From contig CP000070.1 in assembly GCA_000002445.1 (NCBI GenBank), forward strand, positions 704,001 to 768,000: a stretch of DNA of 64,000 nucleotides, written 5' to 3'. This stretch comes from Trypanosoma brucei (taxonomy: Eukaryota). Of this stretch, positions 9,719 through 60,387 are shown one piece after another (positions within the stretch are counted from its first letter, which is position 1; every line of letters starts with the position of its first letter). Position numbers and translations under genes: made by a program. The notes beneath the pieces are model-generated. The model had not been told where the DNA came from. It saw only the letters and a program-made list of their open reading frames with translations, and did no database searches.

Positions 9719-9737
9719 TATATATATATATATATAT
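9719..9737. repeat. (TA)n microsatellite
   Basis: tatatatatatatatatat, read directly. Confidence 0.9.
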
Positions 9738-24822: not shown

Positions 24823-25386
<564 letters not shown>

Positions 25387-25456
25387 ATAGAGTAACTCAC
25401 AGTCGGTCTGGTGAATATCCCGCGACCTGGAAATAGTTAGATGCCTATGCGGATCC

Positions 25457-25491
25457 CTCACTGCATCCCTTACGGGATTGTTGCGAGTGAG
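25457..25491 (+). promoter_or_regulatory. conserved imperfect hairpin in the H2A 3' UTR. Representative; present in all 13 units.
   Basis: CTCAC-tgc-ATCCC-ttac-GGGAT-tgttgc-GAGTGAG. The inner 5-bp stem has a 4-nt loop and the outer 5-bp stem pairs ctcac with gtgag. It lies ~70 nt after the stop codon and is invariant between copies. Confidence 0.4.
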
Positions 25492-25720
25492 CCCGCAAAC
25501 TGTTTACTTCACTCCCTTTTTTTTCTTGTTTTTTCTTGATTGTGTGTGTTGTTGGCACTTTTGTCCACAAATCACATTCACCATTTTCTCAATAATTGTT
25601 GTGTGGCTCGGTTGTATTTATCGACAATGTGTGCCTCCATTTGTGTGAGGTGGTGCGGACTTGCCGTGTGCACACACAATGTGGTTGTTGTGCATGTGCA
25701 CGTGTCTGTGCTTCCTTTAG

Positions 25721-26296
<576 letters not shown>

Positions 26297-26629
26297 ATAG
26301 AGTAACTCACAGTCGGTCTGGTGAATATCCCGCGACCTGGAAATAGTTAGATGCCTATGCGGATCCCTCACTGCATCCCTTACGGGATTGTTGCGAGTGA
26401 GCCCGCAAACTGTTTACTTCACTCCCTTTTTTTCTTGTTTTTTCTTGATTGTGTGTGTTGTTGGCACTTTTGTCCACAAATCACATTCACCATTTTCTCA
26501 ATAATTGTTGTGTGGCTCGGTTGTATTTATCGACAATGTGTGCCTCCATTTGTGTGAGGTGGTGCGGACTTGCCGTGTGCACACACAATGTGGTTGTTGT
26601 GCATGTGCACGTGTCTGTGCTTCCTTTAG

Positions 26630-27205
<576 letters not shown>

Positions 27206-27539
27206 ATAGAGTAACTCACAGTCGGTCTGGTGAATATCCCGCGACCTGGAAATAGTTAGATGCCTATGCGGATCCCTCACTGCATCCCTTACGGGATTGT
27301 TGCGAGTGAGCCCGCAAACTGTTTACTTCACTCCCTTTTTTTTCTTGTTTTTTCTTGATTGTATGTGTTGTTGGCACTTTTGTCCACAAATCACATTCAC
27401 CATTTTCTCAATAATTGTTGTGTGGCTCGGTTGTATTTATCGACAATGTGTGCCTCCATTTGTGTGAGGTGGTGCGGACTTGCCGTGTGCACACACAATG
27501 TGGTTGTTGTGCATGTGCACGTATCTGTGCTTCCTTTAG

Positions 27540-28115
<576 letters not shown>

Positions 28116-28448
28116 ATAGAGTAACTCACAGTCGGTCTGGTGAATATCCCGCGACCTGGAAATAGTTAGATGCCTATGCGGATCCCTCACTGCATCCCTT
28201 ACGGGATTGTTGCGAGTGAGCCCGCAAACTGTTTACTTCACTCCCTTTTTTTTTGTTTTTTTCTTGATTGTGTGTGTTGTTGGCACTTTTGTCCACAAAT
28301 CACATTCACCATTTTCTCAATAATTGTTGTGTGGCTCGGTTGTATTTATCGACAATGTGTGCCTCCATTTGTGTGAGGTGGTGCGGACTTGCCGTGTGCA
28401 CACACAATGTGGTTGTTGTGCATGTGCACGTGTCTGTGCTTCCTTTAG

Positions 28449-29024
<576 letters not shown>

Positions 29025-29358
29025 ATAGAGTAACTCACAGTCGGTCTGGTGAATATCCCGCGACCTGGAAATAGTTAGATGCCTATGCGGATCCCTCACT
29101 GCATCCCTTACGGGATTGTTGCGAGTGAGCCCGCAAACTGTTTACTTCACTCCCTTTTTTTTCTTGTTTTTTCTTGATTGTATGTGTTGTTGGCACTTTT
29201 GTCCACAAATCACATTCACCATTTTCTCAATAATTGTTGTGTGGCTCGGTTGTATTTATCGACAATGTGTGCCTCCATTTGTGTGAGGTGGTGCGGACTT
29301 GCCGTGTGCACACACAATGTGGTTGTTGTGCATGTGCACGTATCTGTGCTTCCTTTAG

Positions 29359-29934
<576 letters not shown>

Positions 29935-30267
29935 ATAGAGTAACTCACAGTCGGTCTGGTGAATATCCCGCGACCTGGAAATAGTTAGATGCCTATGCGG
30001 ATCCCTCACTGCATCCCTTACGGGATTGTTGCGAGTGAGCCCGCAAACTGTTTACTTCACTCCCTTTTTTTCTTGTTTTTTCTTGATTGTGTGTGTTGTT
30101 GGCACTTTTGTCCACAAATCACATTCACCATTTTCTCAATAATTGTTGTGTGGCTCGGTTGTATTTATCGACAATGTGTGCCTCCATTTGTGTGAGGTGG
30201 TGCGGACTTGCCGTGTGCACACACAATGTGGTTGTTGTGCATGTGCACGTGTCTGTGCTTCCTTTAG

Positions 30268-30843
<576 letters not shown>

Positions 30844-31176
30844 ATAGAGTAACTCACAGTCGGTCTGGTGAATATCCCGCGACCTGGAAATAGTTAGATG
30901 CCTATGCGGATCCCTCACTGCATCCCTTACGGGATTGTTGCGAGTGAGCCCGCAAACTGTTTACTTCACTCCCTTTTTTTCTTGTTTTTTCTTGATTGTA
31001 TGTGTTGTTGGCACTTTTGTCCACAAATCACATTCACCATTTTCTCAATAATTGTTGTGTGGCTCGGTTGTATTTATCGACAATGTGTGCCTCCATTTGT
31101 GTGAGGTGGTGCGGACTTGCCGTGTGCACACACAATGTGGTTGTTGTGCATGTGCACGTGTCTGTGCTTCCTTTAG

Positions 31177-31752
<576 letters not shown>

Positions 31753-32086
31753 ATAGAGTAACTCACAGTCGGTCTGGTGAATATCCCGCGACCTGGAAAT
31801 AGTTAGATGCCTATGCGGATCCCTCACTGCATCCCTTACGGGATTGTTGCGAGTGAGCCCGCAAACTGTTTACTTCACTCCCTTTTTTTTCTTGTTTTTT
31901 CTTGATTGTATGTGTTGTTGGCACTTTTGTCCACAAATCACATTCACCATTTTCTCAATAATTGTTGTGTGGCTCGGTTGTATTTATCGACAATGTGTGC
32001 CTCCATTTGTGTGAGGTGGTGCGGACTTGCCGTGTGCACACACAATGTGGTTGTTGTGCATGTGCACGTATCTGTGCTTCCTTTAG

Positions 32087-32662
<576 letters not shown>

Positions 32663-32995
32663 ATAGAGTAACTCACAGTCGGTCTGGTGAATATCCCGCG
32701 ACCTGGAAATAGTTAGATGCCTATGCGGATCCCTCACTGCATCCCTTACGGGATTGTTGCGAGTGAGCCCGCAAACTGTTTACTTCACTCCCTTTTTTTC
32801 TTGTTTTTTCTTGATTGTGTGTGTTGTTGGCACTTTTGTCCACAAATCACATTCACCATTTTCTCAATAATTGTTGTGTGGCTCGGTTGTATTTATCGAC
32901 AATGTGTGCCTCCATTTGTGTGAGGTGGTGCGGACTTGCCGTGTGCACACACAATGTGGTTGTTGTGCATGTGCACGTATCTGTGCTTCCTTTAG

Positions 32996-33571
<576 letters not shown>

Positions 33572-33904
33572 ATAGAGTAACTCACAGTCGGTCTGGTGAA
33601 TATCCCGCGACCTGGAAATAGTTAGATGCCTATGCGGATCCCTCACTGCATCCCTTACGGGATTGTTGCGAGTGAGCCCGCAAACTGTTTACTTCACTCC
33701 CTTTTTTTCTTGTTTTTTCTTGATTGTATGTGTTGTTGGCACTTTTGTCCACAAATCACATTCACCATTTTCTCAATAATTGTTGTGTGGCTCGGTTGTA
33801 TTTATCGACAATGTGTGCCTCCATTTGTGTGAGGTGGTGCGGACTTGCCGTGTGCACACACAATGTGGTTGTTGTGCATGTGCACGTATCTGTGCTTCCT
33901 TTAG

Positions 33905-34480
<576 letters not shown>

Positions 34481-34812
34481 ATAGAGTAACTCACAGTCGG
34501 TCTGGTGAATATCCCGCGACCTGGAAATAGTTAGATGCCTATGCGGATCCCTCACTGCATCCCTTACGGGATTGTTGCGAGTGAGCCCGCAAACTGTTTA
34601 CTTCACTCCCTTTTTTTTGTTTTTTTCTTGATTGTATGTGTTGTTGGCACTTTTGTCCACAAATCACATTCACCATTTTCTCAATAATTGTTGTGTGGCT
34701 CGGTTGTATTTATCGACAATGTGTGCCTCCATTTGTGTGAGGTGGTGCGGACTTGCCGTGTGCACACACAATGTGGTTGTTGTGCATGTGCACGTGTCTG
34801 TGCTTCCTTTAG

Positions 34813-35388
<576 letters not shown>

Positions 35389-35721
35389 ATAGAGTAACTC
35401 ACAGTCGGTCTGGTGAATATCCCGCGACCTGGAAATAGTTAGATGCCTATGCGGATCCCTCACTGCATCCCTTACGGGATTGTTGCGAGTGAGCCCGCAA
35501 ACTGTTTACTTCACTCCCTTTTTTTTTGTTTTTTTCTTGATTGTATGTGTTGTTGGCACTTTTGTCCACAAATCACATTCACCATTTTCTCAATAATTGT
35601 TGTGTGGCTCGGTTGTATTTATCGACAATGTGTGCCTCCATTTGTGTGAGGTGGTGCGGACTTGCCGTGTGCACACACAATGTGGTTGTTGTGCATGTGC
35701 ACGTGTCTGTGCTTCCTTTAG

Positions 35722-36297
<576 letters not shown>

Positions 36298-40792: not shown

Positions 40793-43267
40793 ATGCCCGT
40801 CTCCCTTACTTCAGTCACCACCGATGGAAGAACCAACACCGTCCCGAAACTTCGTCCGTACCAGCAGGAGCTGTTTGAGAAGGCGATACGTGGAGACTCT
40901 ATTATTTACCTTCCAACTGGTGGGGGTAAGACAGTGGTTGCTGCGGCGATCGCACACTATATGCGACGTAAACACGAGAAACGGATAGTCTTCGTCGTGA
41001 ATCGTGTTCCATTGGTGGCACAACAGGCAAAAGTGCTTGAAAGCGTTTTGGGGAAAGGGTCTCGGGTGGCGACAGTTCGTGGCGGTAAGAAATCCGTAAA
41101 GAGCTGGAGTGTGTTGGTGGATGAAGGATGCGATGGCGTTGTTATCACCGATTCCATATTTCACGAGTGGATTATCGGTTCCCCCAAAGCAATCACGGAG
41201 GACACGTGCCTGGTGGTCATCGACGAAGTTCATAACGCTACTGGTGGCTGTCTAAAAAAAATTTTCGAGTATATACATAGAATATGTCCCCGAGAGCCGC
41301 AAAGGTGTGCCTCCAATGATGGCGTCAGCGAACCAACTCTTCCCCTCCTTCTTGGTCTTACTGCTTCACCCGTTTTGTCCTTCACCAGGTCGGACTCGCT
41401 GAACAAACTCATCGACGTGACGCGCTGTCGCATCGTGAATGTGACGGAGAAGATGGACAATCTGCTTCAAGAAGTGCCTTTACCGTTAACTGTAGGAGTG
41501 GAGTATTACCTCTCGCCTCCCGAAGAAGCATTTCTGTTTTATTTGCAGAGAGCCGCAGTGGCCCTACAGGATAATCTCAAAGTAAAGAAAAATGCACATT
41601 TAAGGGCGGGGTTTGCTTGTCCGGTGGCTTCTGATGGTTACATTAATAGGTGTAATGAGATAAAAGTAAAAGCGTGCAGTGGGACAAGCGGCGAGGTTGA
41701 TAGGTTTGCGTACAGTATTGCTACGTTCTTACTTTGTGTGTCCCAAGCTTTCGTTAAACTAAACGAGGTCTCGCTCGGTAGTGCATACAAAACCGTCATG
41801 GATGATAAATTGTTTAAGTCGTTGCAAGAAAGTCCAGAATCGGCGGAGCTTGTTGTACCGATTCTTGAGGGTCTGATGAAGTTGCTACGGGAAAGCAGGC
41901 ACAAGTATCCGGAAAGAGATCCAGGGCAGGACGATTCCTCAGTGGGTTTTGACCCATTTGAGGTATCTTCAAGGGTCCAGTTTTTATTGCAGTTGCTTAG
42001 TTGGATTGGCAAACATGTGGAAGCTAATCATGTAGAAGTGGCTGGCATCATTTTCTGCGATACTCGTGCTTCCGTGTTCCGTATTACTGAAGCTATTGAG
42101 AAGATTCCCACGCTGAGCTCATTGTATAAGCCCCGAGCGCTCGTAGGGAAGGGGAAAACGCTAGTTGATGGGGAAGAAAAGGGTATGACCGATGCCCAAC
42201 AGAGGGATGTTATAGATGAATTCCGGAAGGGCAATACAAGGCTTTTGGTGGCGACGTCCCTAGCTGAAGAGGGACTAGACATCGCCCAGTGCAACCTTGT
42301 TATTAGATATGACTCTTGTGTTTCACTTCGTAGTTTCGTACAAAGTCGTGGGAGGGCCAGGCGGAGGAATGCACTCTTTATCGTTTTTGAGCATGCCCGT
42401 CGGGAGATTAAAGTTGCGGCTGTGGCGATGAAGGCGGTGCGTCTCCAGGATTTTCTTGTGAACGCTGTCCGTGATGCGATTGAGGTGGGGACTCGGCGGG
42501 CCCCCAGAGTTTGGGAGGAATCTCCGAAGTTTTGGTTACGTCGGTTTGAGCGCCGCCACAATGCACCGATTGAGAGGAAGGAGACGGACTGCCGTACGGA
42601 TTTTGGAAGCCACACGCACCCGTTTATTGTAGAGCTCACTGTTACGATACCAAATAACTCTAGTCCTGAAAAAATTGTGATTCCTAAACCGTACGAGGGG
42701 AAGACCATTTCTGTAAAAGCGTCGGGCGGCCGTGTGAAAGCGCGGCAGTATGCCGAATATCAACTCTGTGAGGAACTAGACAAGAGGGGGATACTCATTG
42801 GTGAGGATGGTGAAAGGGCCCGCAGCATTTCAACGATGAAGATGCTGTCCAACGGAATTTTGGTATGTGAGGAGGGATCCCTCTCTACGTCGGAGCTTCG
42901 GAAGCTTTTTTCTCGGAATCCAACTGCAATAGAAACTTATGATAGGAAGGACTGGGGGCCCCACACTCCCTCTTCTGTCCTGCGGGATTCTCTCCGTCGT
43001 CGTCGTTTGCCTGCGCCAGAAATTCACATCAATCGCTCAGGGGACGAGACTAGAGCTGAAATTTATGTGTATATGCGGAGGGACGAAAAAATTGAGCAAA
43101 GAAGGTTTGCTGCAAGCGGGGTTTGTGCTTTGGAGGAGGCAGCGATGAAGGCGCTAAAACATATGAAAATTCAGCTATTTACTGGCACTGGCCACGTCGA
43201 GACCACGGATGACATTGGTAGCAGGGATTTAGCTTGGGAAAGTGAAACCAGCGAATCCGAGAATTAA
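40793..43267 (+). CDS. DExH-box helicase of the Dicer/RIG-I/FANCM superfamily-2 clade, with C-terminal dsRBD-like segment(s)
   Basis: Motif I YLPTGGGKT, motif II VVIDEVHNATGG, motif VI QSRGRARRR with LVATSLAEEGLDIAQCNLVIRYD (Dicer/RLR-type). The C-terminal SVKASGGRVKARQYAEYQLCEEL resembles the end of a dsRBD. No RNase III signature was seen. Confidence 0.7.
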   Translation: MPVSLTSVTTDGRTNTVPKLRPYQQELFEKAIRGDSIIYLPTGGGKTVVAAAIAHYMRRKHEKRIVFVVNRVPLVAQQAKVLESVLGKGSRVATVRGGKKSVKSWSVLVDEGCDGVVITDSIFHEWIIGSPKAITEDTCLVVIDEVHNATGGCLKKIFEYIHRICPREPQRCASNDGVSEPTLPLLLGLTASPVLSFTRSDSLNKLIDVTRCRIVNVTEKMDNLLQEVPLPLTVGVEYYLSPPEEAFLFYLQRAAVALQDNLKVKKNAHLRAGFACPVASDGYINRCNEIKVKACSGTSGEVDRFAYSIATFLLCVSQAFVKLNEVSLGSAYKTVMDDKLFKSLQESPESAELVVPILEGLMKLLRESRHKYPERDPGQDDSSVGFDPFEVSSRVQFLLQLLSWIGKHVEANHVEVAGIIFCDTRASVFRITEAIEKIPTLSSLYKPRALVGKGKTLVDGEEKGMTDAQQRDVIDEFRKGNTRLLVATSLAEEGLDIAQCNLVIRYDSCVSLRSFVQSRGRARRRNALFIVFEHARREIKVAAVAMKAVRLQDFLVNAVRDAIEVGTRRAPRVWEESPKFWLRRFERRHNAPIERKETDCRTDFGSHTHPFIVELTVTIPNNSSPEKIVIPKPYEGKTISVKASGGRVKARQYAEYQLCEELDKRGILIGEDGERARSISTMKMLSNGILVCEEGSLSTSELRKLFSRNPTAIETYDRKDWGPHTPSSVLRDSLRRRRLPAPEIHINRSGDETRAEIYVYMRRDEKIEQRRFAASGVCALEEAAMKALKHMKIQLFTGTGHVETTDDIGSRDLAWESETSESEN

Positions 43268-44549
43268 TTATGTATCCCCTCAGCGAAAAACATTCTGTAT
43301 GAACGGTGGTTGTTCCGATTGTTAGGAATGGGGTTGGTGGGGGGACGTTTCACATGCGTGGCAATCGTCCCTCTTATTATTCCTCCTCGTAAACTCCACT
43401 GCCCATCTGAGGCATTGCCCCAAGAACCATATTTCTGGACGTGGTAAGCGCATGTGAACAAAAGGGACGATATCATCTCCATCAGGTGAGGATATTCTCT
43501 TTTCTACGAATCATGGATATGCGAGGGAGACAATAACGGATAAACTTACCGACGTCACCACTCACTTTAGGAAAATGGCAGTTGCGGAGATGTTAAAGGC
43601 CCAAGCATGTTTTCTACCTTTTCCTTTTAAAAAAAGAACGGAATATGAGAGGGAAAATAAACGGAAAGGGGGTAAGAGCCTCAGTTCAAGGGAGAAGAGA
43701 ATACTAGACCTCTTTTAACACCCTGATGTACAGCATCACCGCCACCGACTTTCAGCCGCAGGTTTTTCCCTTCCCTCACTTGTCGTGGCGAAAATTGTGT
43801 GTGGCTACAATGGAGCAAGGTAACTTGCACCGCATGTTTCTCATTTTGAAAGGATTGTTGGCATTAATATTGCTTTCTCGTTTTGTTTTGTTGTTACAAT
43901 ACAGAGCCTCTGCACCGAGGCGACTTATGAGTGTGTGTTTTACATAAAAATATGTGCATGTCTTCGTCACCCTGCTGCTCCCAGTGAAAGAATGCGTCCT
44001 GTAGGGTAAAACCCTGAAGTAGTCCGTGACTTTGCCACTCTCTTAGATCACAGTTGTTAATTATTAAATTATCTACTGACATGGCTGCTCCTACATGAAG
44101 TAAGGGTAGAGATCAAATAGTTTATAATAAAATACTTCTCGTAAACACTTGCTTGCTTTTTGCGTGTTACAAACCTGTCTTCACCAAGGAAAAAAAGTCA
44201 CTCAATCTTGTTATTCTCATTAGTCTTTCGACACCCCTTCATTTTGAGGAAACAACGAATCATTACGATTTCTTTATTTATATTGTAGACAATTGCTCCC
44301 TCATTCAAGTCCTATGCATGATCTACAATTTTCTCGGATCTCTTCCACATTTCACAGAAGGGTCACGTCACGAAGGAGAACATGTGTATGCATACCGGTT
44401 CACTGCCGCTTTGTCAAATACGTACTGTGTTTTTGTACTAGCACCCAAACTCTTCCCTTCCCTTTATCCTTCTCTCTGCCCCAGTGTCATTTTAAGCAAC
44501 AAAGACTAACCAAACAGGAATATTAATATATCTTACAAACGTTTTCACC

Positions 44550-45122
44550 ATGCGCCGGTCTGTATATCAGCTAAGCAAGGAACTCCCAATCTCTGAGGAC
44601 GAGGTTGCGTGTCTGGTGAAGAAGGTGATGCGTGAATGCCCATCAGCCTTCAATTCCCAATCCTCACGTGCTGTGATCCTCTTTGGAGAGCAACACACAA
44701 AGCTATGGAACCTAACGAAGGATAAGCTAAAGGCGACAGTGAAACCCGATTCCTACAATGAGGCCGCCAAGAAGATTGATGGGTGCTTCGCCCCCGCTGC
44801 CGGTACCATATTGTTTTTCGAGGATAAAAGTGTTGTTGAAGGACTTGTCAAGTCGTACCCCGCATACGCAGAAGGTTTCCCAGTGTGGTCAACTGAATCA
44901 TCAGGTATGGCTCAATTCGCCGTGTGGACAGCACTTGCAGAAAAAGGTATCGGTGCGTCTCTGCAGCACTACACATCACTGATCGGTGAGGCGGTGACGG
45001 CGGAGTGGAAGCTTCCGGCAACATGGGAGATGCATGCACAAATGCCATTTGGAAAGCCACTGGAGAAGTGTGGCGAGAAGACGTACATGCCGGATGAAGA
45101 ACGCTTTAAGGTGTTTAAATAA
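44550..45122 (+). CDS. nitroreductase-like protein (Frm2/Hbn1-type, type II nitroreductase family), copy A
   Basis: 190 aa. N-terminal RRS motif, then AFNSQSSRAVILFGE, GTILFFEDK, SLQHY and a C-terminal ..DEERFKVFK. These are characteristic of the small fungal and protist Frm2/Hbn1 nitroreductase-like proteins. Confidence 0.6.
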   Translation: MRRSVYQLSKELPISEDEVACLVKKVMRECPSAFNSQSSRAVILFGEQHTKLWNLTKDKLKATVKPDSYNEAAKKIDGCFAPAAGTILFFEDKSVVEGLVKSYPAYAEGFPVWSTESSGMAQFAVWTALAEKGIGASLQHYTSLIGEAVTAEWKLPATWEMHAQMPFGKPLEKCGEKTYMPDEERFKVFK

Positions 45123-46782
45123 AGTTCGTTGATATTTTTACCGTACTTGATCACACACATGTATTCCTCCATGGACTGATCTTATTTACACTCTTGGTGT
45201 TATTCACCCTCCTTTAAGCACCAATTTCTTTGCAATACATGCATATACATGTTGGTTTTGGGGCACCTTTATATTGTTATCCAACTGCTTTTTTTGTTCG
45301 CCACGCTTTTCCACTTCTTACCTTTTACACACTAGGTTAATTTGGGCACCGCGTGAGGTTAATATGACCAAATGTATGTTTCTCATGTTTTCCCTTCGTT
45401 TAGCGAGGCAAATGTATTGAAGAAAGTGTCGTGGTTGGGGTAAGTGGTGTTACACGCACGACGTGTTCGTTACCCACCCTTTCCACCCTCTTCTCATGCT
45501 TCTGCACTTCTTTACTTTTTTGTTCATTCGTTTATATACATATATACATATATATTTACGTGTTCTGGCTTCTACGATTTTTAAAAAACACGTATCGCTA
45601 TAATTATAAGCGTGTACGCACTTATTTTTTTGTTATCGCTCTATATACATGTGGTGCATAATACAAGGTGTCTCATTATCACTAGAGGTTTCTTAGGTAC
45701 CGTACCCCGGTCATGTAGCATGATGTAGAGGGATGAGAGTCGATATGAATATAATAAATGATGCTTGTAAGGATGATTTGACCAACTACCGCTTTCGTAC
45801 ACGTGTGTATTTTTGCATGCTTGTGTTTTATCTGCTTTGTTTATTGTAACCCATTTAAATCATATTTTTTTGTTCACTTCTGTTGTCTTTTTGTCACTGT
45901 TGAATTGTTCCCATTGAGTTAGCTGAATTTCATTGGTTTTTGGAGTTATCACATGATGTACGTGCTTGTAGCCGTGGCCATGTTGGCAATATTCTTCGCA
46001 GCTTTAGTGCTGTTTTTACGCGGTAAGTTATCTGCTGGATCAGTTGCCACGAGCAACGGTGGAATTGGCAGTGATTCTGGGCTGATGCCCGGTGAGTCAG
46101 TCACTACGAGAGTTCGTCGTGCTCGGAAGGAGGAATAACGATTATCATCCAACAGTGAATATGAGCGGTTGGTGGCGCCTCAGGTGACACGGTTTGTTCG
46201 CAAGATTCGTGCCGCCGCGTTATTTGTTTCCGATTGAGCGCATATGCCGCAGTTAGGTAAATGTTCGGTTGGTGTTGCTGTGGATCTACTGATGTGATCT
46301 GTTGTTGTTGTGTTGTTTTTGAAGAACATTTTTTTAAATACCTTATATTTGTTTTTAATTCTCTCTTCCTTTTTTGTTACACTAATGTGGCCGTAAAGCA
46401 TCCTTAATTAATATTTTGGTTGCCATTGTTAGGTGTCTCCGCAGTTATGTTTACTGTTGGTAATGAAACTATTCTTATTATTATTATTATTATTATTCTT
46501 TTTCTATCCCTTGGCCTTCACCATTATCTTTTTTTTCTTACTTTTGTGACTTCTATGTTTTCAATGGCTACTCAACCTCCCTCCACAGCAGTGCTGTGAT
46601 CTTATCATTTCTCCTGCAAATCCCTGCCGTACATTGTGGTGCTTTCTATATTCTGTCGGCGGAAGCACTCGTGGTAAAAGAGGGGGTAGGGAAAGAGGGA
46701 AACGTGACGAAAGAAGTGGATAGCGTTGAATAACTTGAGAGGCACAATTGTGGAGAGGTTAGATACGAAAGAGTAGTGGAGG

Positions 46783-47721
46783 GTGGGGATCATGTCAAAC
46801 CCACCTAAGCACTACAGTGTGGAGTCATTGCGGACGGTTGGGCTTCTGCCTGCGCAACTGGCCTTGTCCCGTAAGCCACGTCTTCGCCCACACGTAGGTA
46901 ATCTCAAGGGTCTTGTTTACCCTCTACCGTATTACGCAATGTGGCGTGGTAATCACAACAAATACACATATAACAAAAGCACTGTGTGTCTATGGGGAGA
47001 AGGCGATACCCGTTCCATGTACCATCAACATTATGCTCATGCAAAGTGCCCGACGGACTACGGGCGTGGTGGAAGAGAATTTGAATACCTTACAGTGAAG
47101 CGTGGTAAGATGTTACAGAAACCGCTACCGCGGGTGCAATACGTGGCGGAAGGGTCCAAGCCGGTGTGGCTCTTCAAGTCGTGGCATACGCCTCTCAGCT
47201 CACCAAGCATGTGGGAACGAGAGGTTCAGTACGCCGAGCATACACCAGAGCATATTGGTGCCAAGCGGCCGCTTGCAGTAGTCGCACCACGTACAATGCA
47301 TCGCTACCTGTTTCTTATGCATATGGAAAAGGTGACCATTACTGTATCCCCTCTGTTGTTTGGTTATGGTCACACCATACAGAAAGCTGTGTTGGATTTC
47401 TACCGCCGTGCTATAAGTGCTCGCTCTCCATTCCCAAAGGATAAAGTGTTTCTCTTTTATGCCATTGATCACATTACACCTCGTATTGAAGTGACATGGC
47501 TGGATGGGACGTCATATGTTCCACCTGTGTTGGAGGGTGCAAGTTCGCAAGACCTCATTCAGATGGTGATGGAAGAGGCTTGGTTGGCTGCAGATCGCAT
47601 GGCTGCGGAAGGCCGTGTGCTCAATCCGTTAGCAATTGACGATTATAAGTGGGATCAGTTGGTTGTGTTTAAAAAGGTACGGGATAAGGAAGCGAGCAAG
47701 GGTGGTGGCAGAAAGAAGTAA
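46783..47721 (+). CDS. hypothetical protein (312 aa), copy A
   Basis: Long ORF with coding-like composition, duplicated intact. No motif recognised. Confidence 0.5.
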   Translation: MGIMSNPPKHYSVESLRTVGLLPAQLALSRKPRLRPHVGNLKGLVYPLPYYAMWRGNHNKYTYNKSTVCLWGEGDTRSMYHQHYAHAKCPTDYGRGGREFEYLTVKRGKMLQKPLPRVQYVAEGSKPVWLFKSWHTPLSSPSMWEREVQYAEHTPEHIGAKRPLAVVAPRTMHRYLFLMHMEKVTITVSPLLFGYGHTIQKAVLDFYRRAISARSPFPKDKVFLFYAIDHITPRIEVTWLDGTSYVPPVLEGASSQDLIQMVMEEAWLAADRMAAEGRVLNPLAIDDYKWDQLVVFKKVRDKEASKGGGRKK

Positions 47722-49376
47722 GGGATAGGAATTTGTTTGGGTTAGGGGTGGTGGCACCGTGGCCGATTTTTATTTTCCAGTTGTGGTTGTTGTTTTATGG
47801 TACCTCACTTACCCCTTTCCTTTAATTCACAGCTCTTACCGTAGTGTAACTCCTTGTTTTTGCACTTTACGCCAGGTGTGGATGTTGAGTGTTACATTGG
47901 GTTGGTCATTGCCATGCTGATATATATGTGTGCTTTCATTGAAAGTTCATACGGATACTAATATCTTTTCTTTTCATTTACGTTATCACGATATGACGGT
48001 GGTGTTTGTGCCGTTATTGTATTTTGCATCGTGTATGATCCCTTTTCATTTCTCTCTTTCCTCTTTTTCCTCTATTTCACAACACTACTTTAACCTACCG
48101 ACTGACCGAAGTTTAGTGAAGAGGATTGAAACACGACAGGATTAAGCAAAAGGAAAGAAACAGGAAACAGTGTAAGGTGGAAAGGTAGAGTTGTAGGAGG
48201 GACCAAGAAAACGTGTTTGGGCGAAAGGGAAGTTGGGGATTTCTGCATTAAAGGGGAAGTAATGTTTGGCTTTTCAAATTGATTTGTTGGAATTTTGTTT
48301 TTGTGCAAGGTGTGTTGCCGTGTCACTATGTTTATAATGGAGGCTAATTCTATGGGTGCTTGCCTTGTTTGTGCAATCTTTTCCATTTCGTGTTGTATCT
48401 GATCTTATGAACTTCGTCTGGTTTATCCGCTAATAACGTTGTTAATGTAAATGGCAACCATGCGTCGCCCTTTCGGTTTTAAAAAAAACGAACAACTATA
48501 TTCTTTGCCCTTGGTATTTCCATTCCTCAATTTCTCTTTTCTTTTTGTCGCCTTCTCTAGGTGTAGTAAACGCACCGGACTACGCGAAATATAAGACGAC
48601 GGAGGGAAAGAGGATTACATACACGCTACACGAAGGAAAGGGCTTATCATTATTAATTTTCGTGCATTACTTTATTTATCCCGATTTCTCATTCCCCTCT
48701 TTCGTTAGCACCTCCTCTTCCCCTCCCCTTGAGAGTGAAGGGAAGGGAGGTAACGGGTGATTACCAACTGTTTTCGGTGTGACGTGGCCGATCCACCCGT
48801 GTAAGGAACCGGCTTTCACTTTGAGAGACTCTAACGTTCCCGTGTTGGGTCTAAGGAGGGAGGAAACCGGTAGCGACGGGGTATTTAAGACAACTACTTT
48901 TTTTGCGGTAAAAGTGGGCTGGACGTTAGGAAGAAGACGAAGAGGAACCGTGCGTAAAAAAGGTTGTTGTGAGTGAGGTTCCGCTATAGAGGCTAAATAA
49001 GGGTGAGGAGGGTTGTAGGCCCGAAGGGTAGTTGGGTGCTGTGTCACCTGCAGGGAGGAGGTGCGACTACAATTTCGTCAATAGCATCGCTAGTGTTAGT
49101 TACGTTTAGTGTAAAGGCAGAACTGTTTCTAGGGATTGGACTCCGCTAGAACAACGGAACGTGAAGAGTTGCATTTACACAACTCAGTGAGAATTGAGGG
49201 TTGAGGACCCGACGAGAAACCTACGGAGCCGGGGAAAAGAAATCAGTTGCCACAGAACGTTATTTTCATACCCACCATATACTACAGTTTTCCTTAATAT
49301 ATTATTGACTGTTTTTTTTTTTTTAAAGCTACCCAACGACGTGGGTTTCGACTCCTGATAGATTGCAGCCTCTTGC

Positions 49377-56965: not shown

Positions 56966-57226
56966 ACTGTACCATAAGTTGTTCAGACGATTGGTTACAG
57001 CAAAGGTACGGTACACTATACATTCCTGCACATCAAGGGTCACATCACGAAGGAGAGCATGTGTATGCATACCGGTTCACTGCCGCTTTGTCAAATACGT
57101 ACTGTGTTTTTGTACTAGCACCCAAACTCTTCCCTTCCCTTTATCCTTCTCTCTGCCCCAGTGTCATTTTAAGCAACAAAGACTAACCAAACAGGAATAT
57201 TAATATATCTTACAAACGTTTTCACC

Positions 57227-57799
57227 ATGCGCCGGTCTGTATATCAGCTAAGCAAGGAACTCCCAATCTCTGAGGACGAGGTTGCGTGTCTGGTGAAGAA
57301 GGTGATGCGTGAATGCCCATCAGCCTTCAATTCCCAATCCTCACGTGCTGTGATCCTCTTTGGAGAGCAACACACAAAGCTATGGAACCTAACGAAGGAT
57401 AAGCTAAAGGCGACAGTGAAACCCGATTCCTACAATGAGGCCGCCAAGAAGATTGATGGGTGCTTCGCCCCCGCTGCCGGTACCATATTGTTTTTGGAGG
57501 ATAAAAGTGTTGTTGAAGGACTTGTCAAGTCGTACCCCGCATACGCAGAAGGTTTCCCAGTGTGGTCAACTGAATCATCAGGTATGGCTCAATTCGCCGT
57601 GTGGACAGCACTTGCAGAAAAAGGTATCGGTGCGTCTCTGCAGCACTACACATCACTGATCGGTGAGGCGGTGACGGCGGAGTGGAAGCTTCCGGCAACA
57701 TGGGAGATGCATGCACAAATGCCATTTGGAAAGCCACTGGAGAAGTGTGGCGAGAAGACGTACATGCCGGATGAAGAACGCTTTAAGGTGTTTAAATAA
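57227..57799 (+). CDS. nitroreductase-like protein (Frm2/Hbn1-type), copy B
   Basis: 190 aa, identical to copy A except ILFFEDK>ILFLEDK. Confidence 0.6.
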   Translation: MRRSVYQLSKELPISEDEVACLVKKVMRECPSAFNSQSSRAVILFGEQHTKLWNLTKDKLKATVKPDSYNEAAKKIDGCFAPAAGTILFLEDKSVVEGLVKSYPAYAEGFPVWSTESSGMAQFAVWTALAEKGIGASLQHYTSLIGEAVTAEWKLPATWEMHAQMPFGKPLEKCGEKTYMPDEERFKVFK

Positions 57800-59448
57800 A
57801 GTTCGTTGATATTTTTACCGTACTTGATCACACACATGTATTCCTCCATGGACTGATCTTATTTACACTCTTGGTGTTATTCACCCTCCTTTAAGCACCA
57901 ATTTCTTTGCAATACATGCATATACATGTTGGTTTTGGGGCACCTTTATATTGTTATCCAACTGCTTTTTTTGTTCGCCACGCTTTTCCACTTCTTACCT
58001 TTTACACACTAGGTTAATTTGGGCACCACGTGAGGTTAATATGAACAAATGTATGTTTCTCATGTTTTCCCTTCGTTTAGCGAGGCAAATGTATTGAAGA
58101 AAGTGTCGTGGTTGGGGTAAGTGGTGTTACACGCACGACGTGTTCGTTACCCACCCTTTCCACCCTCTTCTCATGCTTCTGCACTTCTTTACTTTTTTGT
58201 TCATTCGTTTATATACATATATATTTACGTGTTCTGGCTTCTACGATTTTTAAAAAACACGTATCGCTATAATTATAAGCGTGTACGCACTTATTTTTTT
58301 GTTATCGCTCTATATACATGTGGTGCATAATACAAGGTGTCTCATTATCACTAGAGGTTTCTTAGGTACCGTACCCCGGTCATGTAGCATGATGTAGAGG
58401 GATGAGAGTCGATATGAATATAATAAATGATGCTTGTAAGGATGATTTGACCAACTACCGCTTTCGTACACGTGTGTATTTTTGCATGCTTGTGTTTTAT
58501 CTGCTTTGTTTATTGTAACCCATTTAAATCATATTTTTTTGTTCACTTCTGTTGTCTTTTTGTCACTGTTGAATTGTTCCCATTGAGTTAGCTGAATTTC
58601 ATTGGTTTTTGGAGTTATCACATGATGTACGTGCTTGTAGCCGTGGCCATGTTGGCAATATTCTTCGCAGCTTTAGTGCTGTTTTTACGCGGTAAGTTAT
58701 CTGCTGGATCAGTTGCCACGAGCAACGGTGGAATTGGCAGTGATTCTGGGCTGATGCCCGGTGAGTCAGTCACTACGAGAGTTCGTCGTGCTCGGAAGGA
58801 GGAATAACGATTATCATCCAACAGTGAATATGAGCGGTTGGTGGCGCCTCAGGTGACACGGTTTGTTCGCAAGATTCGTGCCGCCGCGTTATTTGTTTCC
58901 GATTGAGCGCATATGCCGCAGTTAGGTAAATGTTCGGTTGGTGTTGCTGTGGATCTACTGATGTGATCTGTTGTTGTTGTGTTGTTTTTGAAGAACATTT
59001 TTTTAAATACCTTATATTTGTTTTTAATTCTCTCTTCCTTTTTTGTTACACTAATGTGGCCGTAAAGCATCCTTAATTAATATTTTGGTTGCCATTGTTA
59101 GGTGTCTCCGCAGTTATGTTTACTGTTGGTAATGAAACTATTCTTCTTATTATTATTATTATTCTTTTTCTATCCCTTGGCCTTCACCATTATCTTTTTT
59201 TTCTTACTTTTGTGACTTCTATGTTTTCAATGGCTACTCAACCTCCCTCCGCAGCAGTGCTGTGATCTTATCATTTCTCCTGCAAATCCCTGCCGTACAT
59301 TGTGGTGCTTTCTATATTCTGTCGGCGGAAGCACTCGTGGTAAAAGAGGGGGTAGGGAAAGAGGGAAACGTGACGAAAGAAGTGGATAGCGTTGAATAAC
59401 TTGAGAGGCACAATTGTGGAGAGGTTAGATACGAAAGAGTAGTGGAGG

Positions 59449-60387
59449 GTGGGGATCATGTCAAACCCACCTAAGCACTACAGTGTGGAGTCATTGCGGA
59501 CGGTTGGGCTTCTGCCTGCGCAACTGGCCTTGTCCCGTAAGCCACGTCTTCGCCCACACGTAGGTAATCTCAAGGGTCTTGTTTACCCTCTACCGTATTA
59601 CGCAATGTGGCGTGGTAATCACAACAAATACACATATAACAAAAGCACTGTGTGTCTATGGGGAGAAGGCGATACCCGTTCCATGTACCATCAACATTAT
59701 GCTCATGCAAAGTGCCCGACGGACTACGGGCGTGGTGGAAGAGAATTTGAATACCTTACAGTGAAGCGTGGTAAGATGTTACAGAAACCGCTACCGCGGG
59801 TGCAATACGTGGCGGAAGGGTCCAAGCCGGTGTGGCTCTTCAAGTCGTGGCATACGCCTCTCAGCTCACCAAGCATGTGGGAACGAGAGGTTCAGTACGC
59901 CGAGCATACACCAGAGCATATTGGTGCCAAGCGGCCGCTTGCAGTAGTCGCACCACGTACAATGCATCGCTACCTGTTTCTTATGCATATGGAAAAGGTG
60001 ACCATTACTGTATCCCCTCTGTTGTTTGGTTATGGTCACACCATACAGAAAGCTGTGTTGGATTTCTACCGCCGTGCTATAAGTGCTCGCTCTCCATTCC
60101 CAAAGGATAAAGTGTTTCTCTTTTATGCCATTGATCACATTACACCTCGTATTGAAGTGACATGGCTGGATGGGACGTCATATGTTCCACCTGTGTTGGA
60201 GGGTGCAAGTTCGCAAGACCTCATTCAGATGGTGATGGAAGAGGCTTGGTTGGCTGCAGATCGCATGGCTGCGGAAGGCCGTGTGCTCAATCCGTTAGCA
60301 ATTGACGATTATAAGTGGGATCAGTTGGTTGTGTTTAAAAAGGTACGGGATAAGGAAGCGAGCAAGGGTGGTGGCAGAAAGAAGTAA
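59449..60387 (+). CDS. hypothetical protein (312 aa), copy B
   Basis: Protein identical to copy A. Confidence 0.5.
   Translation: MGIMSNPPKHYSVESLRTVGLLPAQLALSRKPRLRPHVGNLKGLVYPLPYYAMWRGNHNKYTYNKSTVCLWGEGDTRSMYHQHYAHAKCPTDYGRGGREFEYLTVKRGKMLQKPLPRVQYVAEGSKPVWLFKSWHTPLSSPSMWEREVQYAEHTPEHIGAKRPLAVVAPRTMHRYLFLMHMEKVTITVSPLLFGYGHTIQKAVLDFYRRAISARSPFPKDKVFLFYAIDHITPRIEVTWLDGTSYVPPVLEGASSQDLIQMVMEEAWLAADRMAAEGRVLNPLAIDDYKWDQLVVFKKVRDKEASKGGGRKK

What the first reader, a model, noticed from the sequence alone, without database searches (positions are those of the whole stretch)
40793..43267. Dicer/RIG-I-clade DExH helicase with dsRBD-like tail but no RNase III domain
Motifs I (LPTGGGKT), II (DEVH) and especially VI (QSRGRARRR after LVATSLAEEGLDIAQCNLVIRYD) place this in the Dicer/RIG-I-like branch of superfamily 2 rather than among DEAD-box helicases. 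The C-terminal 250 aa contain at least one dsRBD-like terminus (ASGGRVKARQYAEYQLCEEL). No ERLEFLGD-type RNase III signature is present. From memory, T. brucei's Dicer-like nucleases (DCL1, DCL2) are RNase III proteins with no DExH helicase domain. If so, a separate Dicer-related-helicase-like protein, analogous to DRH proteins, would be a candidate missing helicase partner for the RNAi pathway. Alternatively it is a FANCM/Hef-like DNA repair helicase.
Basis: partly seen in the sequence, partly recalled or inferred. Interest (0 to 1): 0.55.

Follow-up and report, generated by a model that had tools for sequence, protein, structure and literature searches.

The report
Stand-alone Dicer-type helicase without nuclease
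This Trypanosoma brucei gene (Tb927.7.2970) encodes the front half of a Dicer enzyme (ATP-driven helicase, DUF283 domain and a second dsRNA-binding-type domain) with no RNA-cutting part, so it is a testable candidate for the helicase and dsRNA-binding functions that the parasite's helicase-less Dicer-like nucleases lack.

Summary
Window 40793..43267 (+) is an intact 824-aa ORF identical to Tb927.7.2970. It has motifs I (LPTGGGKT), II (DEVH), III (TAS) and VI (QSRGRARR), and no RNase III or PAZ domain.

The helicase belongs to the Dicer/RLR clade. A family profile scores Dicer helicases at 9e-108 to 2e-89 and RLRs at about 1e-88. Hef scores 3e-52 and FANCM 6e-45. In an NJ tree the family is monophyletic (86%) and groups with Dicers (77%), not with Hef.

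Alignments to Dicers continue past the helicase into DUF283. The tail holds two dsRBD-fold modules. Module 2 (aa 716-795) is a non-canonical dsRBD (Dus2 dsRBD E = 7e-6; DRB7.2 TM 0.76).

The architecture recurs across Euglenozoa: six Trypanosoma species, syntenic divergent Leishmaniinae orthologues, Bodo, diplonemids and Euglena. None has RNase III.

An RNAi role is plausible but untested. No T. cruzi orthologue was found, but the gene is outside the published five-gene RNAi-cosegregating set. No publication on it was found.

Verdict: a new variant of a known kind, of moderate interest.

The parts
40793..43267 (+). Complete ORF, 824 aa plus TAA stop; equals Tb927.7.2970
40844..41512 (+). Hel1 (RecA-like domain 1), aa 18-240. 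Contains motif I LPTGGGKT (nt 40910-40933), motif Ia (nt 40988-41032), motif II DEVH (nt 41222-41233) and motif III TAS (nt 41360-41368).
   Evidence: Pfam DEAD/ResIII aa 19-167; AF2 secondary structure; motifs conserved family-wide
41516..42028 (+). All-helical insertion domain (Hel2i-like), aa 242-412, between the two RecA domains
42035..42397 (+). Hel2 (RecA-like domain 2), aa 415-535, with motifs V/Va (LVATSLAEEGLDI) and VI QSRGRARR (nt 42341-42364)
   Evidence: Pfam Helicase_C aa 418-525
42413..42487 (+). Long 'pincer'-type helix after Hel2, aa 541-565
   Evidence: AF2 helix 541-565. Profile alignments to RLRs end at about this point, profile positions 546-576.
42506..42796 (+). Module 1: DUF283 (Dicer_dimer)-type dsRBD fold, aa 572-668.
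   Evidence: AF2 a-b-b-b-a topology. Family-profile alignments to AncD1D2, AtDCL1 and Dcr-2 run through DUF283. Pfam dsrm is above threshold in orthologue P0073, and Dicer_dimer scores E 8e-4 to 5e-3 in P0073, P0081 and P0068. Module-only profile: Loqs 5e-6, AncD1D2 DUF283 6e-4.
42797..42937 (+). Linker, aa 669-715. Low model confidence, partly conserved within Trypanosoma.
   Evidence: pLDDT 46-62; alignment
42938..43177 (+). Module 2: non-canonical dsRBD with an N-terminal extension (YD..W..P), aa 716-795
   Evidence: Profile vs PDB: Dus2 dsRBD 7e-6 and 1e-3, then DRBM, DHX29, TRBP, Loqs, PACT, mL44, RNase III and RDE-4. AF2 pLDDT 93.7. Foldseek: DRB7.2 dsRBD TM 0.76 / 1.8 A, then Loqs, DCL4, Staufen, HYL1, Dus2, DHX9 and MLE. 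The KKxAK-type basic patch at the start of alpha2 is absent.
43178..43264 (+). Acidic, disordered C-terminal tail, aa 796-824
   Evidence: pLDDT < 50; 8 D/E vs 1 K/R; not conserved

Best explanation
**What is shown**
Tb927.7.2970 is a stand-alone Dicer-type helicase module. Its order is Hel1, helical insertion (Hel2i), Hel2, pincer helix, a DUF283-type dsRBD fold, a short linker, and a C-terminal non-canonical dsRBD. It has no PAZ domain and no RNase III domains. All ATPase motifs are intact, and they are conserved across Euglenozoa.

**Inferred mechanism**
- The C-shaped helicase clamps double-stranded RNA and uses ATP to translocate along it, as Dcr-2, plant DCLs and RLRs do.
- Module 1, which keeps part of the basic alpha2 motif, assists RNA handling next to the helicase.
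- Module 2 has lost the canonical RNA-contact lysines. It is more likely a protein-protein or atypical RNA contact.

**Most likely role (inferred, not shown)**
The protein supplies in trans the helicase and dsRBD functions that the RNase III-only Dicer-like enzymes TbDCL1 and TbDCL2 lack. That would help recognition or processive dicing of long dsRNA, such as retroposon or repeat-derived dsRNA. It would act as an accessory factor, not an indispensable core factor.

**Confidence split**
- Classification and architecture: about 0.9.
- dsRNA-dependent ATPase or translocase: about 0.65.
- Functional link to DCL1/DCL2 or RNAi: about 0.35.
For: **Clade**
- Single-sequence phmmer vs PDB gives AncD1D2 2.7e-33, MDA5 9e-33, LGP2 2.5e-30 and RIG-I 1e-27. 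Hef scores 8.5e-21 and FANCM 6e-18.
- The 19-sequence family profile gives AncD1D2 9e-108, AtDCL1 2e-89 and RLRs about 1e-88 to 1e-77. Hef scores 3e-52 and FANCM 6e-45.
- The Foldseek top 50 are all RLR or Dicer.
- NJ tree with 200 bootstraps: family monophyletic 86%, family + Dicer (+ helicase-RdRP fusions) 77%, Hef separate 100%, family + RLR 1%.

**Dicer-type architecture**
- Alignments to AncD1D2, AtDCL1 and Dcr-2 are single stretches that run through DUF283, to profile position about 650. RLR alignments stop at the pincer.
- Orthologues hit Pfam Dicer_dimer and dsrm in module 1.
- Module 1 alone hits the AncD1D2 DUF283 at 6e-4 and canonical dsRBDs at 5e-6.
- Module 2 is a dsRBD.

**No nuclease in any family member**
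Shown: **Constraint**
Motifs Q, I, Ia, II, III, V and VI are conserved from Euglena and diplonemids to Trypanosoma.

**Orthology**
The AAA / EF-hand / helicase / kinesin neighbourhood is shared by T. brucei, T. rangeli, T. conorhini, Lotmaria and Novymonas.

**RNAi link, circumstantial**
- TbDCL1 has only RNase III domains (PMC7827160).
- Dicers generally need dsRBP cofactors, and none with a dsRBD is known in T. brucei (PMC3359990).
- The six Trypanosoma species with the gene all have RNAi genes (PMC6201504; PMC5737535; MKGL is T. rangeli AM80).
- RNAi-less T. cruzi yielded no orthologue.
- The mRNA is expressed, at logCPM about 7.8 (PMC13056571 supplementary file 14).
Against: - No experiment or interaction data were found for this gene.
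- It is not among the five genes present in all RNAi-positive and absent from all RNAi-negative trypanosomatids compared by Barnes et al. (PMC3359990). A 2026 survey of kinetoplastid RNAi effectors lists no helicase.
- Syntenic orthologues exist in the Leishmaniinae Lotmaria and Novymonas, whose RNAi status I could not determine.
- No orthologue was retrieved from RNAi-positive T. theileri.
- The absences in T. cruzi and T. theileri rest on protein databases only, not genome DNA.
- The tree is NJ with limited sampling and no eukaryotic FANCM/Mph1.
- The T. conorhini copy carries a 1-nt frameshift in the assembly.
Confidence: 0.45

Rival explanations
1. The protein is the same kind of Dicer/RLR-clade dsRNA helicase, but it works independently of the Dicer-like nucleases and RNAi. 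Possible roles are a dsRNA or structured-RNA sensor or remodeller: control of endogenous RNA viruses, resolution of sense/antisense duplexes from polycistronic transcription, or snoRNA/rRNA precursor handling.
For: The gene is absent from the RNAi co-segregating set. Orthologues persist as positional orthologues in Leishmaniinae with a remodelled motif VI. RLRs and DRH-type helicases show that this helicase clade can act as sensors without cutting RNA. Module 2 most resembles the Dus2-type extended dsRBD, which belongs to a tRNA-modifying enzyme rather than an RNAi factor.
Against: It has no RLR-type C-terminal domain or signalling domains. The post-helicase module is specifically DUF283-like, a domain otherwise characteristic of Dicers. 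Within Trypanosoma the gene was found only in species that have RNAi genes.
Confidence: 0.35
2. It is an evolutionary relic: a Dicer paralogue that lost its nuclease half and persists mainly as a dsRNA-binding scaffold with little or no motor function.
For: The architecture looks like Dicer minus platform-PAZ-RNase III. The sequence evolves fast (44% identity between T. brucei and T. congolense). Leishmaniinae copies carry large insertions and altered motifs I and VI. The T. conorhini copy has a frameshift.
Against: All ATPase motifs are invariant or nearly so across euglenids, diplonemids, bodonids and Trypanosoma. That is not expected for a non-enzymatic scaffold retained over so long a time.
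Confidence: 0.1
3. It is a FANCM/Hef/Mph1-like DNA-repair translocase.
Against: The family profile scores Hef at 3e-52 and FANCM at 6e-45, against 9e-108 for a Dicer helicase. Hef forms a separate clade at 100% bootstrap. No family member has an ERCC4 or HhH domain, and the tail is DUF283 plus dsRBD. No FANCM or Hef entry appears in the Foldseek top 50.
Confidence: 0.03
4. It is a generic DEAD/DEAH-box RNA helicase, as the database name ('ATP-dependent DEAD/H RNA helicase, putative') implies.
For: The Pfam DEAD and Helicase_C hits are the basis of the database name.
Confidence: 0.02

Closest known systems
N-terminal half of Dicer: helicase + DUF283 (Drosophila Dcr-2, Arabidopsis DCL1/DCL4, the reconstructed AncD1D2 helicase construct)
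   Same: The order Hel1, Hel2i, Hel2, pincer, DUF283 is the same. Motifs are DExH (DECH in the euglenid and diplonemid members). Profile alignments are colinear through DUF283. The family groups with Dicers in the tree at 77%. The ATPase motifs are intact, as in the ATP-dependent Dicers.
   Different: There is no platform, PAZ, connector or RNase IIIa/b domain in any family member. DUF283 is followed after about 50 aa by a non-canonical dsRBD. It is a separate polypeptide of 824 aa.
RIG-I-like receptors (RIG-I, MDA5, LGP2) and nematode Dicer-related helicases DRH-1/DRH-3
   Same: They share the helicase clade, insertion domain and pincer, with very similar E-values and fold scores. They are stand-alone helicases without a nuclease. 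DRH-1 is annotated as a Dicer-related helicase bound to dsRNA (PDB 8t5s and 9t99). From my own knowledge, DRH-1 acts together with DCR-1, which is a precedent for a trans-acting helicase.
   Different: There is no RIG-I C-terminal regulatory domain (PF11648/PF18119) and no CARDs. The post-pincer domain is DUF283-type instead. Tree support for grouping with RLRs is 1%.
Hef / FANCM / Mph1 DNA translocases
   Different: Sequence-profile scores are much weaker and they form a separate clade. The ERCC4 and HhH domains of Hef/FANCM are absent. dsRBD-fold domains, typical of RNA proteins, are present.
dsRBD partner proteins of Dicers (Loqs-PD, R2D2, TRBP/PACT, DRB4, DRB7.2, RDE-4) and the extended dsRBD of Dus2
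   Same: Modules 1 and 2 match these dsRBDs by profile and fold. Like the terminal dsRBDs of some of these partners, module 2 lacks the canonical basic RNA-contact motif.
   Different: Here the dsRBD folds are fused to the helicase rather than supplied by a separate small protein.
TbDCL1 / TbDCL2, the Dicer-like RNase III enzymes of T. brucei
   Same: Same organism. They are presumed derivatives of the same ancestral Dicer system.
   Different: The domain content is complementary. The DCLs have RNase III domains but no helicase, DUF283 or dsRBD (PMC7827160). This protein has those domains but no RNase III.

Membership tests
Dicer/RLR ('RIG-I-like') family of SF2 helicases | Conserved motifs Q, I, Ia, II (DExH), III, V and VI (QxxGRxR) | tested here: met
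   Present at aa 24, 40-47, 66-80, 144-147, 190-192, 482-506 and 517-524; conserved in 19-20 family members
Dicer/RLR ('RIG-I-like') family of SF2 helicases | Helical insertion domain (Hel2i) between the RecA domains, and a pincer helix after Hel2 | tested here: met
   AF2 model: helices 242-412 and helix 541-565. Aligns with RLR and Dicer structures.
Dicer/RLR ('RIG-I-like') family of SF2 helicases | Closest relatives by sequence profile and phylogeny are Dicer or RLR, not Hef/FANCM, Ski2 or DEAD-box | tested here: met
Dicer (bona fide endoribonuclease) | Two RNase III domains | tested here: not met
   No PF00636 or PF14622 hit at E <= 10 in T. brucei or at E <= 1 in 19 family members. No signature motif found.
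Dicer (bona fide endoribonuclease) | Platform-PAZ cassette | tested here: not met
   No PF02170 hit. Only about 50 residues lie between module 1 and module 2.
Dicer (bona fide endoribonuclease) | DUF283 / Dicer dimerisation domain directly after the helicase | tested here: met
   Colinear profile alignment to the DUF283 of AncD1D2, AtDCL1 and Dcr-2. Pfam Dicer_dimer scores 8e-4 to 5e-3 in orthologues and 0.25 in T. brucei. Module-only profile hits AncD1D2 DUF283 at 6e-4.
RIG-I-like receptors / DRH proteins | RIG-I-type C-terminal regulatory domain after the pincer | tested here: not met
   No PF11648 or PF18119 hit in any family member. RLR alignments end at the pincer.
Hef / FANCM / Mph1 | ERCC4-type nuclease (active or degenerate) and HhH2 domains C-terminal to the helicase; helicase core clusters with Hef/FANCM | tested here: not met
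   No PF02732, PF12826 or PF14520 hit. Hef is a separate clade at 100% bootstrap. Profile E-values are 3e-52 and 6e-45, against 9e-108 for Dicer.
dsRBD (double-stranded RNA-binding domain superfamily) | [quoted passage not shown] | tested here: met
   Module 1. Module 2. Module 1 vs module 2 by hhalign: probability 86%, E 5.6e-6.
dsRBD (double-stranded RNA-binding domain superfamily) | Canonical RNA-contact residues (basic KKxAK-type start of alpha2) | tested here: inconclusive
   Module 1 keeps K/R at 37-63% of sequences in three positions (RVKAR in T. brucei). Module 2 is acidic or neutral there.
dsRBD (double-stranded RNA-binding domain superfamily) | Binding of double-stranded RNA | not testable with these tools
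   Needs biochemistry
Core RNAi machinery of trypanosomatids (AGO1, DCL1, DCL2, RIF4, RIF5) | Present in all RNAi-positive and absent from all RNAi-negative trypanosomatids | tested here: inconclusive
   Not in the published five-gene set (PMC3359990). Found in six RNAi-gene-bearing Trypanosoma species and not in T. cruzi. Also not found in T. theileri. Present in Lotmaria and Novymonas, whose RNAi status is unknown. Genomes could not be searched at DNA level.
Core RNAi machinery of trypanosomatids (AGO1, DCL1, DCL2, RIF4, RIF5) | Loss of function abolishes or weakens RNAi | not testable with these tools
   No published phenotype found

The most novel reading that the evidence does not exclude
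A 'split Dicer'. In the euglenozoan ancestor the Dicer functions came to be divided between two kinds of gene. One kind encodes a helicase-DUF283-dsRBD protein (this family). The other encodes the RNase III-only Dicer-like proteins DCL1 and DCL2. The two would reassemble non-covalently into a working holo-Dicer. The helicase protein would then provide dsRNA end recognition, ATP-driven threading and partner docking for DCL1 and/or DCL2. It would be a sixth, so far overlooked, RNAi factor in T. brucei.
Probability: 0.22. Interest if true: 0.8.

Novelty: new variant of a known kind. Interest (0 to 1): 0.55.

Why it matters
Trypanosome RNAi is a major research tool and a model of a minimal, early-diverging silencing pathway. 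Its two Dicer-like nucleases have no helicase, DUF283 or dsRBD, and the only known DCL1 cofactor (RIF5) has no recognisable domains.

A conserved, catalytically intact protein that carries exactly the missing Dicer modules gives a concrete candidate. It can be tested with one gene knockout or a Walker A point mutant. The open questions it addresses are how trypanosome Dicers recognise and process long dsRNA, and how many components are needed to rebuild RNAi in RNAi-negative parasites.

Independently of RNAi, it shows that the Dicer helicase-DUF283 unit can exist and persist as a separate gene across a whole eukaryotic phylum. That bears on how Dicer was assembled and disassembled in evolution.

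It also corrects misleading database names: 'DEAD/H RNA helicase', 'ERCC4-related helicase', and 'Protein Dicer' for a diplonemid member that has no RNase III.

Tried and rejected
2. **'Absent from Leishmaniinae'.** This was my interim inference. It was overturned when multi-stretch hits P0076 and P0078 proved to be Lotmaria and Novymonas proteins. They are colinear with the family HMM and syntenic.
3. **'Intact in RNAi-dead T. rangeli, therefore unrelated to RNAi'.** Withdrawn. The sequence is from strain AM80, whose RNAi genes are reported intact. The pseudogenes were described in strain SC58.
4. **Hidden RNase III in long diplonemid relatives** (P0085 'Protein Dicer', 2245 aa; P0083, 1924 aa). 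Their C-terminal halves are low-complexity P/Q repeats with no nuclease signature.
5. **Early negative scans of the tail.** Single-sequence Pfam scans were negative or sub-threshold. The 7-sequence profile of module 1 found nothing in PDB. Only deeper alignments worked.
6. **Word-indexed homologue searches.** They missed known family members such as T. grayi and T. vivax, so their negatives are weak evidence.
7. **Searches that led nowhere.**
   - No paper names Tb927.7.2970.
   - The TrypTag supplements held contain no entry for it.
   - The RIT-seq paper, Patrick 2009, Matveyev 2017 and Gargantini 2012 are not held.
   - The AFDB50 fold library is not installed.
   - Naming the organisms behind contigs L006 and L007 through neighbouring genes failed.
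Full report
**1. The observation**

Window 40793..43267 (+) is a single ORF of 824 codons ending in TAA. It is 100% identical over its full length to Tb927.7.2970 of Trypanosoma brucei brucei TREU927. Databases call it 'hypothetical protein' or 'ATP-dependent DEAD/H RNA helicase, putative'.

- LPTGGGKT at aa 40-47
- DEVH at aa 144-147
- LVATSLAEEGLDIAQCNLVIRYD followed by QSRGRARR at aa 517-524
- ASGGRVKARQYAEYQLCEEL at aa 643-662

Pfam finds only DEAD, ResIII and Helicase_C. It finds no RNase III, PAZ, RIG-I_C, Dicer_dimer or dsrm at E <= 10 for the full protein. A pattern search for the RNase III signature is also negative. The dsRBD part needed more sensitive methods.

**2. The helicase core**

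Against all PDB sequences the single protein hits Dicer and RLR best:

| Target | E-value |
|---|---|
| Reconstructed ancestral Dicer helicase AncD1D2 | 2.7e-33 |
| MDA5 | 9e-33 |
| LGP2 | 2.5e-30 |
| RIG-I | 1e-27 |
| Plant DCL1 | 4e-23 |
| Hef | 8.5e-21 |
| FANCM | 6e-18 |
| DEAD-box proteins | about 1e-7 |

A profile built from 19 family members widens the gap:

| Target | E-value |
|---|---|
| AncD1D2 | 9e-108 |
| AtDCL1 | 2e-89 |
| RLRs | 4e-88 to 5e-77 |
| Dcr-2 | 1e-60 |
| DRH-1 | 1e-53 |
| Hef | 3e-52 |
| FANCM | 6e-45 |

The AlphaFold2 model (pLDDT 75.9) shows:
- RecA domain 1 at aa 18-240
- an all-helical insertion at aa 242-412
- RecA domain 2 at aa 415-535
- a long helix at aa 541-565 in the position of the RLR/Dicer pincer

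The Foldseek top 50 PDB matches are all MDA5, LGP2, RIG-I, ancestral Dicer helicase, Dcr-2 or DCL4.

I built a neighbour-joining tree of 48 helicase cores (484 columns, 200 bootstraps). The results were:
- family monophyletic: 86%
- Hef clade separate: 100%
- family + Dicers (+ some helicase-RdRP fusion proteins): 77%
- family + RLRs: 1%

The tree has limits. It uses NJ, Dicer sampling is mostly fungal and plant, and no eukaryotic FANCM is included.

**3. The tail: two dsRBD-fold modules, the first of DUF283 type**

The model shows two alpha-beta-beta-beta-alpha units, at aa 578-664 and 726-790.

- Family-profile alignments to AncD1D2, AtDCL1 and Dcr-2 are single stretches. They continue from the helicase through the pincer into the Dicer DUF283 domain, to profile position about 650. 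Alignments to RLRs stop at about 550-576.
- In more distant orthologues the same module reaches Pfam dsrm above the gathering threshold (P0073: 24.1 vs 23 bits). It also hits Dicer_dimer (PF03368) at 8e-4 to 5e-3, and at 0.25 in T. brucei.
- A profile of module 1 alone hits Loqs, MLE, Staufen, TRBP, DHX9 and PKR dsRBDs at 5e-6 to 1e-2. It hits the DUF283 of AncD1D2 over nearly the whole domain at 6e-4.

*Module 2 (aa 716-795)*
- Its 17-sequence profile hits the Dus2 dsRBD at 7e-6 and 1e-3. Weaker hits are DRBM, DHX29, TRBP, Loqs, PACT, mL44, RNase III and RDE-4.
- Modelled alone it reaches pLDDT 93.7.
- It superposes on the DRB7.2 dsRBD at TM 0.76 and 1.8 A, followed by Loqs, DCL4, Staufen, HYL1, Dus2, DHX9 and MLE dsRBDs.

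The two module profiles align to each other (hhalign probability 86%, E 5.6e-6).

Module 1 keeps a partly basic start of alpha2 (RVKAR). Module 2 is acidic or neutral there and has a basic RRR at the end of alpha1. This pattern is typical of non-canonical dsRBDs, which often mediate protein contacts. That last point is an inference.

**4. The family and its distribution**

An exhaustive profile search of 1.84 billion representatives, plus cluster look-ups, shows full-length relatives in these groups:
- *Trypanosoma:* T. congolense, T. vivax, T. grayi, T. rangeli and T. conorhini
- *Bodonids:* Bodo saltans and bodonid-like environmental contigs
- *Diplonemids:* Diplonema papillatum, Rhynchopus humris and Namystynia karyoxenos
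- *Euglenids:* Euglena gracilis
- *Leishmaniinae:* Lotmaria passim and Novymonas esmeraldas, in very divergent form with large insertions

None of the members scanned has RNase III or PAZ. The diplonemid proteins of 1,900-2,250 aa owe their length to low-complexity P/Q repeats. One of them is auto-named 'Protein Dicer'.

The ATPase motifs are conserved throughout. Euglenids and diplonemids have DECH, the classic Dicer/RLR form, and kinetoplastids have DEVH. Leishmaniinae have a derived motif VI, QCCGRLR, which still keeps G-R-x-R.

Orthology is positional. The helicase lies between AAA-ATPase and EF-hand genes upstream and a kinesin gene downstream in T. brucei. The same holds in T. rangeli, Lotmaria and Novymonas, and T. 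conorhini shares the upstream genes and the kinase.

**5. Relation to RNAi**

*Established from the literature*
- TbDCL1 'contain[s] just two RNase III domains' (PMC7827160).
- Dicers generally need dsRBP cofactors. The known DCL1 cofactor RIF5 has no recognisable domain (PMC3359990).
[quoted passage not shown] Tb927.7.2970 is not among them.
- A 2026 preprint still lists no helicase among kinetoplastid RNAi effectors.

*Species status*
- T. grayi and T. theileri have all five genes (PMC5737535).
- T. conorhini and T. rangeli AM80 have them intact. T. rangeli SC58 has pseudogenes, and T. cruzi has none (PMC6201504 and PMC4169256).
- The T. rangeli helicase found here is from AM80 (MKGL).

*What follows*
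- Every Trypanosoma species in which I found the helicase has RNAi genes.
- T. cruzi, with many deposited proteomes, gave no orthologue in four searches.
- T. theileri also gave none. The RNAi status of Lotmaria and Novymonas, and the presence of the gene in Leishmania proper, could not be determined.
- All absences rest on protein databases. The word-indexed search also missed known members, so they are provisional.
- The pattern is compatible with an accessory RNAi role. It does not prove one, and it excludes a role as a universally required core factor, at least as orthology was scored in 2012.

**6. Mechanism proposed**

*Shown*
- A catalytically intact Dicer-clade helicase, fused to a DUF283-type module and a non-canonical dsRBD, without a nuclease.
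- The architecture is conserved in Euglenozoa.
- The mRNA is expressed, at logCPM about 7.8 (PMC13056571 supplement).

*Inferred from the family*
- ATP-dependent clamping of dsRNA and translocation along it.
- Module 1 assists RNA handling, and module 2 serves as a docking surface.

*Inferred with lower confidence, about 0.35*
- The protein acts in trans with the helicase-less DCL1 and/or DCL2.

The main rival is an RNAi-independent dsRNA or structured-RNA helicase (0.35). The relic/scaffold (0.1), FANCM-like (0.03) and generic DEAD-box (0.02) readings are less likely.

**7. Comparison with known families, and novelty**

The protein works like, and is homologous to, the helicase-DUF283 half of Dicer. 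It is not a Dicer, because RNase III and PAZ were tested and are absent. It is not an RLR or DRH, because the C-terminal regulatory domain was tested and is absent. It is not Hef or FANCM.

I found no publication describing this gene or this architecture in the library available. The gene itself is annotated in public databases. I rate it a new variant of a known kind.

It is interesting mainly because it makes the question 'where are the helicase and dsRBD functions of trypanosome Dicers?' directly testable.

Noticed in passing
window 24853-36297 (+): Thirteen tandem copies of a histone H2A gene with a period of about 909 bp (Pfam Histone_H2A_C 5e-11). They lie directly upstream of the AAA / EF-hand / helicase block. 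An H2A gene occupies the same relative position in T. rangeli (L005:219-626). TRF with maximum period 500 did not report the array.
   Followed up: partly
window 44358-47721 and 57035-60387 (+): A segmental duplication of about 3.4 kb, 95-99% identical, with spacing of about 12.67 kb. Each copy carries a 190-aa nitroreductase-family ORF (PF00881, 5e-17) and a 312-aa ORF with no Pfam hit.
   Followed up: partly
window 43268-49376 compared with L005:8359-11893, L003:13685-18504 and L008:13874-17077: In T. rangeli, T. conorhini, Lotmaria and Novymonas a protein-kinase gene sits between the helicase and the kinesin gene. In T. brucei that slot holds the nitroreductase + 312-aa ORF block instead. 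The 312-aa ORF shows no similarity to the kinase.
   Followed up: partly
window about 7200-11600: Probable divergent strand-switch region. Long ORFs are on the minus strand up to about 7.2 kb and on the plus strand from about 11.6 kb. GC skew changes sign near 8 kb.
   Followed up: no
L009:2830-2900 (T. conorhini MKKU01000035.1): The T. conorhini orthologue is annotated as a truncated 730-aa protein lacking motif I. The assembly has a 1-nt deletion just before the LPTGGGKT codons ('ttcctcccacgg' vs 'ttccttcccacgg' in T. rangeli). The N-terminal 40 codons are conserved in another frame. This could be a sequencing error or an incipient pseudogene.
   Followed up: partly
proteins P0235 (1343 aa) and P0262 (1346 aa; 598 member sequences): Fusion proteins combine a Dicer-clade helicase with a eukaryotic RNA-dependent RNA polymerase domain (PF05183). 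They are the best non-family scorers against the family's helicase HMM (333 and 292 bits) and group with Dicers in the tree. Source organisms are unknown.
   Followed up: no
proteins P0085 (Diplonema papillatum, 2245 aa) and P0083 (1924 aa): Diplonemid-type family members carry C-terminal extensions of more than 900 aa made of P/Q-rich low-complexity repeats. The D. papillatum protein is named 'Protein Dicer' in NCBI although no RNase III domain or signature is detectable.
   Followed up: yes
window 40811-41233, 41638-42012 and 42028-42708 (-): Three antisense ORFs of 124-226 aa lie inside the helicase gene. Nothing suggests they are genes. They are most likely chance ORFs on the opposite strand of a long coding region.
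   Followed up: no
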